Source: a plasmid | Length of the DNA stretch: 42,001 nt | Strand: one strand, 5' to 3' | Sequence record: NZ_CP048251.1 | Shown: positions 12,001 to 15,000 of the stretch, piece by piece | Layout: the number at the start of each line of letters is the position of its first letter | Position numbering within the stretch: the stretch's first letter is position 1 | Made by a program: the position numbers

Positions 12001-15000
12001 CAATGGGCAGTCCCTACGGCTGATGAGGTCAAAGAATTGTGGTTAGCAACGGGAATGACTCAAAAACAAGTTAGCAGGTATTTAGGGTTGAAAGACACCA
12101 ATGGTAGAGCTTTCAGGAGATTCATCAGTGGGGAATCATCCATCACATATGCCTATTGGGTTTTATTGAGCTTGTATGTGGGTATTGAGAAATTTTGGTA
12201 AATAAAATTTTAGCCGCTAAAATTGCTTGACAAATAGGATAATTTATCCTATAATACAAACTATATCGGACGGAGGCTCCTATGGACAGAATTAAATCCA
12301 AAGCTGGAAAAAAAATGTTTGAAGTGGTTTATATGGTGTTAGCTATCGCCTATTTGCTTTTCCCTGTCCGATGGTTTGCTTGGATGTACAGTTTCTATGT
12401 TTTGTGCCAAATGCTGTACCACTGGAATATGGCTGATTCATGGATTTATATCGGCAAATTTATCTTGACGTTCGGTATCGTAATGGGATGGCTCACTTTT
12501 GTTATCGCGTTCAGAAATAAAATATGAGGTGTAGGAATGAAGATTTTAGTGGTGGCAAACCAAAAGGGCGGGGTAGGAAAAACGGCTATGTCGCTTCATC
12601 TTGCCTGGCATATGGAAACAGTTGGACTGAGGGTTTTAGTAATTGATTTGGATACGCAGGGGAATGCGAGTTACTCTCTTCGAGACAAAACGTGTCTTTT
12701 CGGTTCCGGCCGTTTGTTTGGAAATATGGAAGATGCGGATTTACATATGCCCGGCAACGTTTCACTGGCTCTTTCCCCGGCGACAAACGATTTGGCTAAC
12801 GTGCAGAATATGACTTTGCAAAATGCTGTTCAGTCTTTTACGCAAAACATCGACAAATTAAAAGCGGGCGGGCAATTCGATGTCTGTATTATTGATACTC
12901 CGCCCAGTTTAGGTAACACGTTGGCGGCTGCACTGGCGGCCGGGGATTATGTGTTATGTCCGATCGAGTTGGAAACATACAGCCTACAAGGAATTAAACA
13001 GATGGCTGCAACAATAGGCAATATCAGAAAAGTGAACAGCAAATTGGCTTTTTTGGGTATATTGCCAAGTAAGGTCGATATGAGGAATCCGCGCCATAAA
13101 AGGCATTTGGAAGAAATTAAAATGCAGTATAATGAAATTGTAATACCGCATATTATCGGATTGAGGAGCAGTATCGCAGATGCGTTGTCTTCCAGCCTGC
13201 CGGTTTGGAAAATCAAGAAAACGGCAGCAAGAAAGGCGGCGCAGGAAATGAAAGCCGTTTCTAACTATGTTTTAAACAAAATGCAAGGGTAAAATTTATG
13301 AATAACAGTAATTTGGGTTTGGAAAACATCGGCAATCTCAGCGAACTTTTGGGTAATGCAGAGGTCTCATCAGGGACGCCGCTGCGCCTGCCCCTTGCTT
13401 CAATCAAAGAAGACCCCGATCAACCAAGAAAAGAATTTGACGAAGGAAAAATTCAGGAACTAGCAAACAGCATTCAGGAGAGAGGCGTGAAAACACCCAT
13501 ATCGGTGCGTCAAAGTTCCGAAGAAGGGGTCTATGTCATCAACCACGGCGCACGACGTTACAGGGCTTCATTGCTGGCAGGGCTGAGCGAGATTCCCGCA
13601 TATATCGATCAAGATTACAGCCTGATCGATCAGGCTGTTGAAAATATCCAGCGCGATAATCTAACGCCAAGGGAAATCGCCGACGTAATTGGCCGATTGC
13701 TGGCAGAGGGGATGAAAAAGGGACAGATTGCCGAAAAAATGGGCAAATCCCCTGCTTTCGTTACCCAGCATGCAAACCTGCTGGACTTACCCGAACCTCT
13801 GGCCAACGCATTCAACTCGGGGAAAGTATCCGATTTGACGGTAATCAATGACCTGAACGCATTGTATAAAAAAGAACCGGAAGCGGTGGAAGATTTGCTG
13901 TCTAACGAAGACGAGATTACCCGTAGTTCGGTAAGGAATTTGAAAGAGTTTTTAAACTCGGATCCTAAAAATTCTGCTGATGCCGATCATGAAAAGCCAT
14001 CCAAGGCAAAAGTGAAAGAGAAAAAGCCGGAAGATCCTGACAAACTGAAAAAAGCTATTGTGCAGGTAATGTATCAAGGCCAACTGGCAAGGCTGGTTTT
14101 GAACAAGCGCGGATTGTCTGGCGATGAGGTATGGATTAAGTTTGAGGAGTCCGGCGAAACAGAATCTGTTCCTTGTAAAGAAATTTCCGGGATTGTTGCA
14201 GTTATTGAAGGATAATACTGGGAATTTATTATAATACCCCCCCGTTTTAACGGGCTGCCCAGTTTTACTGCTGCCGGTATGTGCAAAATACCGAATCAGC
14301 AGGTTGATCAGAATTCATTAAATTAAATCATTTTAAAATCAAATATTTATGGGGGGGGGGGGGTATATTAAAGACTGTTCTGTTAGAATTATTCACATCT
14401 TTTTTGAAAATTTTTAGCAGAATGGAAGCAGAAAAACAAAGAGTGCTGGTATTGAACAAACAGCATTTGTTCGAGACAGAAAAAGACGGCAAATGGATTA
14501 CGCAGGCGGTTAAGCCTGCTCCTGCCAATATGAAGCCGGGAATTTATTTGCTGCATACGGCCAAATCTCCTCAGGATTCTGTCAGGTACGAAGGGCAAAT
14601 CGTTTTTCAAAATGACAGCTATGTTTATCAGAAAACACGACAGTCTATAGTCAAATACCCGTGTTCTCTATTTTCTTCCGTTCCGTCGATCGGAGAAGTG
14701 GTCTCAATCAGTGTCAAGGACAAAGCGGCAACAGTAGAAAAGGCGGGTATCGGAGAGAAAAAAACTTTAACGCGCTAAATGAAATTTTAGCCGCTAAAAT
14801 TTTAGGATAACACCATGAATGAAGATAAAGGGCTTGTAGCTAAAGCTGTTGCGGCTGAAACCGAACAAGAAGAGTTGTTTGAAAGCAGGCAGGTTATTGA
14901 GGAAACTTTCGCCGGTGTGTTAAATACTTATGTCTTGGAAAAGACAGAACAGGTTGAGCGCATAGAAGAAAAATTGGAGCAATTGATTTCCGGGCAAATG

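What the first reader, a model, noticed from the sequence alone, without database searches (positions are those of the whole stretch)
14229..14370. G13 and C7 homopolymeric tracts in the promoter region of orf14422: candidate phase-variable switch
A G13 tract lies at 14351-14363, directly abutting a TATATT -10-like hexamer. A C7 tract lies at 14237-14243, directly abutting TATAAT. The two are arranged as an imperfect inverted pair about 110 bp apart. Neisseria uses poly-G and poly-C tracts in promoter spacers (porA, opc, fetA) for slipped-strand phase variation. On a plasmid, this could switch expression of the zeta-C-domain homologue and/or orf178. Such a long G tract is also prone to sequencing error.
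Basis: partly seen in the sequence, partly recalled or inferred. Interest (0 to 1): 0.65.

Follow-up and report, generated by a model that had tools for sequence, protein, structure and literature searches.

The report
Hypervariable poly-G tract upstream of plasmid kfrB
The gonococcal conjugative plasmid has a run of about 13 G's (and a shorter run of C's) just upstream of its kfrB-kfrC plasmid-maintenance genes; the run length differs widely between isolates, so it is a credible but untested on/off or volume switch, already flagged in one 2025 preprint.

Summary
G13 (14351-14363) and C7 (14237-14243) lie in the 206-bp gap between korB/parB and kfrB of a Neisseria gonorrhoeae IncP-like conjugative plasmid. 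These two tracts are almost the only indel sites in 32 kb of backbone. Across complete plasmids and assemblies the G tract ranges from G6 to G15 (mode 12-13) and the C tract from C6 to C9, while the flanking sequence is identical.

A 2025 bioRxiv preprint already lists kfrB as a predicted phase-variable gene, reading the tract as lying "immediately after the start codon". My evidence argues against that in-ORF reading:
- KfrB homologues, and the KfrB-like C-terminal domain of the plasmid's own zeta toxins, align from ATG 14422.
- Two sister plasmid lineages have ACG or AA in place of the upstream ATG, yet keep a variable G10-G15 tract.
- The 118-aa ORF is intact at every tract length.

The tract is therefore non-coding. 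It abuts TATATT and lies about 20 bp upstream of an extended -10 (TGtTAGAAT), both invariant. The most likely mechanism is opc-like, slippage-driven modulation of kfrB-kfrC transcription. No -35 fits, no transcription start is mapped, and any effect on expression is untested. This is a new member of a known kind, of moderate interest.

The parts
14351..14363 (+). Poly-G tract (G13 in this window); hypermutable simple-sequence repeat
   Evidence: Sequence. Lengths seen in DNA: G7, G10, G11, G12, G13, G14, G15. Lengths G6, G9, G12, G15 are inferred from exact N-terminal protein variants. It is the only indel versus CP020416 in 32 kb.
14237..14243 (+). Poly-C tract (C7 in this window), 21 nt after the korB/parB stop; also length-polymorphic
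   Evidence: C6, C7, C8 and C9 seen in related plasmids. It is the only indel event versus CP034033 in 32 kb.
14364..14369 (+). TATATT, a -10-like hexamer directly abutting the G tract (candidate P2, opc-like geometry)
   Evidence: Sequence. Invariant in all lineages. It gains a weak -35 only at G7 or G10-11 in a crude PWM.
14381..14389 (+). TGtTAGAAT, an extended -10-like element (candidate P3). It ends 32 nt before the kfrB ATG; the G tract would occupy about -34 to -46.
   Evidence: Sequence. Invariant in all lineages. By my hand calculation with the matrix it has the second-best -10 score in the region (about 8.0 against 8.7 for TATAAT); it did not reach the top five combined scores that one search printed. 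Its distance to the ATG resembles the TCTATAAT upstream of Xylella kfrB.
14205..14235 (+). TTGAAG-N16-TATTAT / TATAAT promoter-like match (candidate P1) ending at the C tract
   Evidence: The only hit of the consensus scan and the top crude PWM score at every G length. It is lost in the TAC lineage by a T>C change at 14227.
14349..14417 (+). Upstream ATG (14349-14351, sharing the first G of the tract) and the frame it opens. At G13, G10 or G7 it gives a 20-22-codon uORF ending at TAG 14415-14417. At G12, G9 or G15 it fuses to kfrB (142 aa at G12). At G14, G11 or G8 it gives a 5-7-codon peptide.
   Evidence: In-silico translation for G5-G18. CP002441 annotates KfrB from this ATG. The ATG is replaced by ACG or AA(A) in two sister lineages.
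14375..14425 (+). Predicted RNA hairpin (14375-14388 pairs with 14412-14425) that buries the kfrB start codon in any transcript starting upstream of about 14375
   Evidence: MFE -15.4 kcal/mol, z -2.5, 4 of 200 shuffles as good. The sequence is invariant, so there is no covariation test.
14268..14302 (+). Predicted compound hairpin CUGCUG-CGGUAU...AUACCG-CAGCAG in the segment between the two tracts
   Evidence: A C>T change in one arm (CAGCAG>CAGTAG) occurs in the TAC lineage.
14422..14778 (+). kfrB (118 aa), a KfrB-domain protein; the first gene downstream of the tract
   Evidence: Pfam PF18790, E 7e-11. PGAP annotation WP_003701856.1. Homologues start one codon before the residue aligned to position 5.
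14786..14798 (+). IncP KorB operator OB (TTTAGCCGCTAAA) between kfrB and kfrC
   Evidence: One of six perfect sites in the window; 0.06 expected by chance. Also reported in PMC2848598.
14815..15351 (+). kfrC (178 aa), probably co-transcribed with kfrB
   Evidence: PGAP 'IncP plasmid survival protein KfrC family'. There is a 36-nt gap and no terminator-like site in 13900-14900.
13298..14215 (+). korB/parB, the upstream gene; no predicted terminator between it and kfrB
   Evidence: Pfam ParB_N + KorB + KorB_C. No terminator-like site.

Best explanation
The G tract, and to a lesser degree the C tract, is a hypermutable simple-sequence repeat in the non-coding region upstream of the kfrB-kfrC accessory partition genes of the Neisseria IncP-like conjugative plasmid. 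Slipped-strand mispairing during replication changes its length. That polymorphism is shown.

The mechanism is inferred. The tract directly abuts a conserved -10-like TATATT and occupies the -35/upstream zone of a conserved extended -10 (TGtTAGAAT). Changing its length would therefore shift the AT-rich upstream DNA (14317-14350) relative to the core promoter in both distance and helical phase. This would raise or lower kfrB-kfrC transcription, as in the opc/porA/fetA class of Neisseria promoter tracts. The canonical KfrB (118 aa, ATG 14422) is made in all states, and only its amount would change.
For: Hypervariability:
- The 31 complete plasmids in which the tract is resolved carry G13/C7 (13), G12/C7 (5), G12/C8 (1), G13/C9 (1) and G7/C6 (11). 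The rest of the 800 bp is identical apart from one SNP.
- Over 32 kb of backbone, the G tract is the only indel versus CP020416 and the C tract is the only indel versus CP034033. A9 and the A8/T8 runs are invariant.
- Further contigs give G10, G11, G14 and G15.
- Exact protein variants corresponding to G6, G9, G12 and G15 occur on 9, 121, >=1000 and 298 contigs.
- An independent preprint counts 10 distinct repeat lengths in 165 plasmid-bearing isolates.

Non-coding position:
- Four KfrB homologues start one codon before the residue aligned to position 5 of the 118-aa form.
- The zeta-toxin C-domain aligns from residue 2.
- The upstream ATG is ACG or AA(A) in two sister lineages that still carry G10-G15.

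Promoter proximity:
- TATATT and TGtTAGAAT, and all of 14364-14421, are identical in all three lineages except one A>G in one contig.
- The modal length is 12-13 in all three lineages. In opc, one C more or less changes expression: 11 low, 12 high (PMC3447861).
- porA, fetA and opc tracts lie in the promoter (PMC2791445).
Against: - No -35-like hexamer lies 16-18 bp upstream of TATATT at G12-G13.
- The consensus scan does not call either downstream element, and its one hit (P1, upstream of the C tract) is no more than shuffles give.
- No terminator follows korB, so kfrB may simply be read through from the incC-korB operon. In Nitrosomonas, parB and kfrB overlap.
- Near-identical plasmids often share one length: 11 records from Japan and China are all G7/C6. 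Switching is therefore not so fast that it randomises lengths.
- The lineages differ by only 1-2%, so retention of the tract is weak evidence for selection.
- Homopolymer lengths in assemblies are error-prone.
- No expression data exist.
Confidence: 0.45

Rival explanations
1. In-ORF translational phase variation, as in the 2025 preprint. KfrB starts at ATG 14349 and the poly-G encodes a Gly run right after the start codon. G12, G9 or G15 are ON (140-143 aa); other lengths frameshift to OFF.
For: - The ATG shares the first G of the tract. At G12 it is in frame with kfrB without stops.
- CP002441 and many assemblies annotate the 142-aa form, which occurs on >=1000 contigs.
Against: - The 24-aa extension has no counterpart in KfrB homologues or in the zeta C-domain.
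- The ATG is absent (ACG, AA) in two sister lineages that keep a variable tract.
- There is no Shine-Dalgarno sequence before it.
- Only 6 of the 31 complete plasmids with a resolved tract are in frame.
- The 118-aa ORF with its own ATG survives every tract length, so 'OFF' would not remove KfrB.
Confidence: 0.1
2. Leader-RNA or uORF control of translation. In long transcripts (korB read-through or a start near the C tract), the kfrB start codon is locked in a hairpin and kfrB has no SD. In the gonococcal lineage, ribosomes on the ATG-poly-G uORF open the hairpin and terminate 4 nt before ATG 14422 at G13, G10 or G7. They fuse at G12. They stop early at G14 or G11. This would give three expression states. 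The 5' C run may pair with the G run.
For: - Hairpin 14375-14425: -15.4 kcal/mol, z -2.5.
- The whole leader folds at z -2.95, with C7 paired to the G tract.
- kfrB lacks the SD that kleE, incC, kfrC and the Xylella and IncP-1 kfrB genes have.
- uORF frames were computed.
- No terminator follows korB.
Against: - The uORF start is missing in two of three lineages.
- The uORF has no SD either.
- All sequences are identical, so no covariation supports either structure.
- All three frames are found in nature, including G11 and G14.
- G and C lengths do not co-vary.
Confidence: 0.12
3. Neutral mutational hot spot. The tracts are tolerated in a non-essential spacer. Their lengths drift by slippage, and partly by assembly error, with no effect on kfrB-kfrC or on anything else.
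For: - No promoter geometry fits cleanly.
- The bases flanking the tract on its 5' side also mutate (T, C, A, AA), as expected around a slippery run.
- The lineages are only 1-2% diverged, so persistence needs no selection.
- Assemblies break or misread here.
Against: - G or C runs of 6 or more are otherwise almost absent from the plasmid: 4 in 42 kb. The two longest sit 107 bp apart in one regulatory gap.
- The tract stays uninterrupted, with the same 12-13 mode, in three lineages.
- It sits directly against conserved -10-like elements.
- In Neisseria, tracts of this length near promoters are typically functional (PMC2791445).
Confidence: 0.3
4. Pure sequencing or assembly artefact. The true tract has one fixed length, and the apparent variation is homopolymer miscalling.
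For: - CP106778 ends in 130 nt of junk poly-C at the tract.
- 247 contigs carry a partial KfrB product that begins right after the tract.
- One low-coverage contig (6.5x) is among the variants.
Against: - G7/C6 is reproduced in 11 complete records from two countries and differs by 6 nt from G13.
- G9, G12 and G15 differ by 3 nt each and are each seen on >100 contigs.
- A9 and T8 runs in the same assemblies are stable.
Confidence: 0.03

Closest known systems
opc (opcA) promoter poly-C tract of Neisseria meningitidis (Sarkari et al. 1994, cited in PMC3447861 and PMC2791445)
   Same: - A homopolymeric G:C tract of about 11-14 nt in the promoter region of a Neisseria gene.
- The modal length of 12-13 matches the lengths at which opc is expressed; 11 C versus 12 C changes expression.
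- The tract lies immediately next to a -10-like hexamer. For opc that detail is from my memory of the 1994 paper and was not checked here.
   Different: - opc is chromosomal and encodes a surface adhesin; this tract is on a plasmid and precedes partition accessory genes.
- Here no transcription start is mapped, no dependence of expression on length is shown, and no -35 fits.
porA and fetA promoter-spacer tracts (poly-G, poly-C) of pathogenic Neisseria
   Same: Homopolymer tract upstream of the gene, length-polymorphic between isolates, and thought to act through sigma-factor binding geometry (PMC2791445).
   Different: In those genes the tract lies between recognisable -35 and -10 hexamers. 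Here a -35 at 16-18 bp is absent at the common lengths.
In-ORF homopolymer phase variation (lgtA, lgtG, pilC, hpuA) of Neisseria
   Same: A poly-G/C tract next to an ATG. In the gonococcal lineage, G12 puts that ATG in frame with kfrB. This is how the 2025 preprint files it.
   Different: The ATG is not the family's start and is not conserved, and frameshifts leave the real ORF intact.
IncP-1 kfrA-kfrB-kfrC operon (R751/RK2) and RA3 KfrC
   Same: - KfrB domain protein followed by a KfrC-family protein, next to incC-korB.
- KorB operators of the exact IncP sequence.
- In IncP plasmids these genes support stable inheritance, and KfrB links KfrA to KfrC (PMC7783346, PMC8124265).
   Different: - No kfrA here: korB is followed directly by kfrB, as in Xylella plasmids.
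- IncP-1 kfr is controlled by KorA, KorB and KfrA repressors.
- The two homologous kfrB upstream regions I read in IncP-1-type plasmids, and the Xylella one, contain no homopolymer tract.
nadA distal TAAA repeat / Bordetella fim poly-C
   Same: If the extended -10 (TGtTAGAAT) is the real promoter, the tract would act by changing the spacing between upstream elements and the core promoter, as in nadA (PMC2791445). The Bordetella fim comparison is from my own knowledge.
   Different: Those systems involve a defined regulator (NadR/IHF, BvgA). No regulator site is identified here.

Membership tests
Neisseria promoter-located homopolymer phase variation (porA/opc/fetA type) | Uninterrupted homopolymer tract of roughly 8 nt or more in the 5' region of the gene | tested here: met
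   G13 at 14351-14363, 58 nt before ATG 14422. 0 of 300 Markov simulations reach 13.
Neisseria promoter-located homopolymer phase variation (porA/opc/fetA type) | Tract length differs between isolates while the flanks are conserved | tested here: met
   G6-G15 and C6-C9. The tracts are the only indels in 32 kb versus two plasmids. The preprint counts 10 lengths in 165 isolates.
Neisseria promoter-located homopolymer phase variation (porA/opc/fetA type) | Tract lies between the -35 and -10 elements of the gene's mapped promoter | tested here: inconclusive
   It abuts a -10-like TATATT and lies about 20 bp upstream of the extended -10 TGtTAGAAT. No -35 sits at 16-18 bp for G12-G13. No TSS data exist.
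Neisseria promoter-located homopolymer phase variation (porA/opc/fetA type) | Expression level depends on tract length | not testable with these tools
   Needs reporter fusions or RNA/protein measurement in isogenic length variants.
Neisseria promoter-located homopolymer phase variation (porA/opc/fetA type) | High-frequency, reversible length change within one strain | not testable with these tools
   Needs read-level or colony-level data. Indirectly, near-identical plasmids carry G12 versus G13, while 11 near-identical records (Japan, China) all carry G7.
In-ORF (translational) homopolymer phase variation (lgtA/pilC/hpuA type) | Tract lies inside the coding sequence, downstream of the genuine start codon | tested here: not met
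   Homologues and the zeta C-domain align from ATG 14422. The upstream ATG is replaced by ACG or AA in two lineages. No SD precedes it.
In-ORF (translational) homopolymer phase variation (lgtA/pilC/hpuA type) | Out-of-frame lengths abolish the full-length product | tested here: not met
   The 118-aa ORF from ATG 14422 is intact at every length. Of the 31 complete plasmids with a resolved tract, 25 are out of frame for the upstream ATG.
IncP-type kfr stability operon | KfrB-domain protein followed by a KfrC-family protein, adjacent to incC-korB | tested here: met
   Pfam KfrB E 7e-11. PGAP names both genes. The same order occurs in Xylella and IncP-1 plasmids.
IncP-type kfr stability operon | kfrA as first gene, with autoregulated kfrA promoter | tested here: not met
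   No gene lies between korB (ends 14215) and kfrB. Pachulec & van der Does list only kfrB and kfrC.
IncP-type kfr stability operon | KorB operators TTTAGCSGCTAAA on the plasmid | tested here: met
   Six perfect sites, one at 14786-14798; 0.06 expected by chance.

The most novel reading that the evidence does not exclude
The plasmid itself carries a contingency locus. Stochastic G-tract (and perhaps C-tract) slippage sets the level of KfrB/KfrC, proteins that in other plasmids link the partition apparatus to the conjugation coupling protein. A gonococcal population would then always contain sub-lines biased towards stable vertical inheritance or towards horizontal transfer. This would be phase variation serving a mobile element's own transmission strategy rather than host surface antigens. 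A further, weaker possibility is that the two outward-facing 'G-run + TATAWT' ends form divergent tract-dependent promoters, with the minus-strand one giving an antisense RNA to the 3' end of korB.
Probability: 0.12. Interest if true: 0.75.

Novelty: new member of a known kind. Interest (0 to 1): 0.45.

Why it matters
Phase variation in pathogenic Neisseria is known almost entirely from chromosomal genes for surface structures, iron uptake, LOS and restriction-modification.

A slippage-controlled switch on the conjugative plasmid that spreads tetM and mobilises the beta-lactamase plasmid would be a different use of the mechanism. It would let the plasmid vary its own maintenance and transfer balance from cell to cell. 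In RA3, KfrC shifts the balance between stability and transfer (PMC8124265).

There are also two practical consequences:
- The tract breaks or miscalls assemblies.
- It makes gene callers alternate between a 118-aa and a 140-143-aa 'KfrB', which inflates apparent allele diversity. It is also probably why the locus was read as an in-ORF repeat.

Tried and rejected
- **More diverged relatives in species-representative genomes.** A KfrB protein scan and an exact DNA pattern both found nothing.
- **Distant KfrB homologues.** Those in IncP-1, Xylella, Xanthomonas and Nitrosomonas plasmids are only 35-42% identical. Their upstream regions have no homopolymer tract, so they help only with the start codon and synteny.
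- **Rfam.** No family matches in 13900-14900.
- **Terminator after korB.** None is predicted.
- **Invertible-segment idea** (the inverted repeat as recombination sites). Every sequence examined, including the 31 complete plasmids covered end to end, has the same orientation. The AT parts of the arms match only 6 of 9, near chance level, so I dropped it.
- **RNA pairing of the C and G tracts.** It is predicted, but G and C lengths do not co-vary and there are no substitutions to test it.
- **Shared operators.** I searched for 11-mers shared between the intergenic region and the rest of the plasmid and found only scattered AT-rich matches.
- **Preprint supplement.** It has no 'kfrB' string. The row is listed as 'traB', class C, 10 lengths, pConj = Yes. 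I take this to be kfrB because it is the only plasmid gene in the parts of the table I read, but that equivalence is my inference.
- **Crude sigma-70 PWM**. It uses approximate textbook frequencies recalled from memory and should be taken only as a ranking aid.
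Full report
**What the window is.** The 42,001-bp window is a Neisseria gonorrhoeae conjugative plasmid with an IncP-like backbone. The 801 bp around the finding match 32 PLSDB plasmids at >=99% identity, all Neisseria and all typed conjugative/MOBP/MPF_T. The finding lies in the 206-bp gap between korB/parB (13298-14215; Pfam ParB_N + KorB + KorB_C) and orf14422. PGAP calls orf14422 a 'KfrB domain-containing protein' (WP_003701856.1), and it has Pfam KfrB at E 7e-11. 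orf178 (14815-15351) is annotated as a KfrC-family protein. Pachulec & van der Does 2010 (PMC2848598) name the same genes (incC, korB, kfrB, kfrC, kleE, korC) and report six KorB operators. I confirmed six perfect TTTAGCSGCTAAA sites, one at 14786-14798 between kfrB and kfrC, against 0.06 expected by chance. That paper does not mention homopolymers or phase variation.

KfrB residues 2-118 align with residues 281-401 of the plasmid's zeta toxin (27% identity, E 2e-12). Both zeta ORFs carry a C-terminal KfrB Pfam domain.

**The observation.**
- G13 is at 14351-14363, directly followed by TATATT.
- C7 is at 14237-14243, preceded by TATAAT plus one A.
- The inverted pair is real but weak: arms of 19 nt, 79% complementary, 110 nt apart. 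Outside the C/G runs, the AT-rich arms match only about as well as chance.
- Only four G or C runs of 6 or more occur in 42 kb, and these two are the longest.
- G13 was never reached in 300 first-order Markov simulations (maximum 12). C7 on its own is not unusual by that model.

| Source | G / C lengths |
|---|---|
| 31 complete plasmids with a resolved tract | G13/C7 ×13, G12/C7 ×5, G12/C8 ×1, G13/C9 ×1, G7/C6 ×11 (Japan and China) |
| Further contigs | G10, G11, G14, G15; one G9 with a 7-bp duplication |

- The rest of the 800 bp is identical in the complete plasmids except for one SNP in the Thai set.
- In whole-backbone comparisons (32 kb, 21-25 SNPs), the G tract is the only indel versus CP020416 and the C tract is the only indel event versus CP034033. 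The A9 and A8/T8 runs are stable. This argues against generic homopolymer miscalling.
- Assembly trouble at the tract is nonetheless real. CP106778 ends in about 130 nt of junk poly-C at this point. In 247 contigs the called KfrB product is a partial protein that begins exactly after the tract.

[quoted passage not shown] Its Table S5 has one plasmid row: 'traB', class C, 10 distinct lengths, 165 isolates, pConj = Yes. I take that row to be kfrB. No experiment on it is reported, and the passaging work used an MS11 derivative. Only this preprint and the 2010 paper mention kfrB together with Neisseria in the searchable library.

**Is the tract inside the gene?** In the gonococcal lineage an ATG (14349-14351) shares the first G of the tract. 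The tract length sets the frame that this ATG opens:

| Tract length | Product of the upstream ATG |
|---|---|
| G12, G9, G15 | Fused to kfrB (142 aa at G12) |
| G13, G10, G7 | 20-22-codon uORF ending at TAG 14415-14417, 4 nt before ATG 14422 |
| G14, G11, G8 | Peptide of 5-7 residues |

Four lines of evidence say the genuine start is ATG 14422.
- In E. coli IncP-1, Xanthomonas, Xylella and Nitrosomonas plasmids, the annotated kfrB start is one codon before the residue that aligns with position 5 of the 118-aa protein.
- The zeta-toxin C-domain aligns from residue 2.
- Two sister plasmid lineages, 1-2% diverged, lack the ATG yet keep a variable tract. One is of meningococcal type, has a KfrB with two substitutions, and reads ...TTTAC-Gn (ACG) with G11, G12, G13 and G15. 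The other reads ...TTTAA(A)-Gn with G10, G12 and G13.
- No Shine-Dalgarno sequence precedes that ATG. Only 6 of the 31 complete gonococcal plasmids are in frame.

So the tract is non-coding, and the 140-143-aa 'KfrB' forms are most simply gene-caller products of in-frame lengths.

**Where it sits relative to expression signals.** Everything from the 3' end of the tract to the kfrB ATG (14364-14421) is identical in all three lineages, apart from one A>G in one contig. That stretch holds two -10-like elements.
- TATATT abuts the tract.
- TGtTAGAAT (14381-14389) is an extended -10 whose distance to the ATG (32 nt) resembles the TCTATAAT 28 nt before Xylella kfrB.
- A crude PWM finds no -35 for TATATT at G12-G13. 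It finds only TTAAAA at G7 (spacer 19) and ATCAAA at G10-11.
- For TGtTAGAAT, the tract itself occupies about -34 to -46, and a very AT-rich, UP-like block (14317-14350) lies beyond it.

A third candidate is TTGAAG-16-TATTAT / TATAAT (14205-14235). It is the only hit of the consensus scan, no more than shuffles give, and would start transcription in the C tract. It loses its -12 T in the meningococcal-type lineage, where the scan finds nothing.

No terminator follows korB, and in Nitrosomonas parB and kfrB overlap, so read-through is possible.

kfrB lacks an SD, unlike its neighbours and its homologues. A predicted hairpin (14375-14388 with 14412-14425; -15.4 kcal/mol; z -2.5) would bury the start codon in any transcript beginning upstream of about 14375. 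Transcripts starting from TGtTAGAAT would escape it. Rfam has nothing here.

**Most likely mechanism.**
- Shown: a hypermutable, non-coding G tract, and a second, milder C tract, immediately upstream of conserved -10-like elements of kfrB-kfrC. The modal length is 12-13 in three lineages.
- Inferred: length changes alter promoter geometry and hence kfrB-kfrC transcription, as in opc/porA/fetA. In those genes the tract lies in the promoter (PMC2791445), and a single C changes opc expression (PMC3447861).

I put this at 0.45. The rivals are:
- a neutral hot spot (0.30);
- leader-RNA or uORF control (0.12), which is attractive for the gonococcal lineage but not conserved;
- the preprint's in-ORF switch (0.10);
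- pure artefact (0.03).

**Why it could matter.** In IncP plasmids kfrA-kfrB-kfrC supports stable inheritance, and KfrB links KfrA to KfrC (PMC7783346, PMC8124265). In RA3, loss of KfrC lowers stability but improves transfer in P. putida. A stochastic switch on these genes could give the plasmid a bet-hedging device between vertical and horizontal spread. That is speculation (probability about 0.12).

**Verdict.** This is a new member of a known kind, flagged once in a preprint under a reading that my evidence does not support. Interest is moderate (0.45).

Noticed in passing
window 9917, 12209, 14786, 17728, 23402, 34342 (13-mers): Six perfect IncP KorB operators TTTAGCSGCTAAA (0.06 expected by chance). 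One sits in the 36-nt gap between kfrB and kfrC. Already reported by Pachulec & van der Does 2010.
   Followed up: partly
window 35630-36838 and 37064-38269: Both zeta-toxin ORFs carry a C-terminal KfrB Pfam domain, and KfrB aligns end to end with zeta residues 281-401. In strain FQ01 one zeta gene is split, and its 3' part is annotated as a separate 'KfrB domain-containing protein' (L018 8070-8576).
   Followed up: partly
window 1800-1830 (minus-strand trbI): A 12-bp tandem unit (TTGCCGTTGTTA) varies in copy number: one extra copy in FC498 (AP018386), matching TrbI of 1452 nt there against 1440 nt in two other plasmids. This is an in-frame 4-aa repeat polymorphism in TrbI/VirB10.
   Followed up: partly
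window 14758-14764 (A7 near the 3' end of kfrB): A frameshifted KfrB variant of 129 aa (ending ...GEKKNFNALNEILAAKILG) occurs on 12 contigs. This is consistent with a +/-1 change in this A run, which reads through into the kfrB-kfrC gap.
   Followed up: no
window 580-588 (T9): T9 is T8 in AP018386. This is the only other homopolymer indel seen in 32 kb across three whole-plasmid comparisons.
   Followed up: no
L036 (GCA_046061145.1 contig, 43,020 bp), upstream of kfrB: Variant 'TTTAT-G9-TATATGG-TATATT'. A 7-bp duplication spans the tract/TATATT junction. It may be real or an assembly error.
   Followed up: no
window 14347-14350 (bases 5' of the G tract): The base(s) just 5' of the tract differ between plasmid lineages (TAT, TAC, TAA, TAAA) while the 3' flank is invariant. 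The substitution hot spot is asymmetric around the repeat.
   Followed up: partly
window 14422 upstream region versus L012-L014: Neisseria kfrB has no Shine-Dalgarno sequence and its ATG lies in a predicted hairpin. Xylella and IncP-1 kfrB have clear GGAG sites. The way kfrB translation starts on this plasmid is unexplained.
   Followed up: partly
window 31982-36217 and 36218-42001: Relative to markerless 39-kb plasmids, the window has about 4.2 kb that aligns only in short, diverged patches (presumably the tetM-type insertion). It is followed by a 5.8-kb stretch only 98% identical with clustered substitutions, which looks like a mosaic or recombinant genetic-load region.
   Followed up: no
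L033/L037 (ERZ28636223 scaffold_217, 78,764 bp): One metagenome scaffold carries the kfrB region twice, about 39 kb apart. The circular plasmid was probably assembled as a dimer. Both copies read G12/C6.
   Followed up: no
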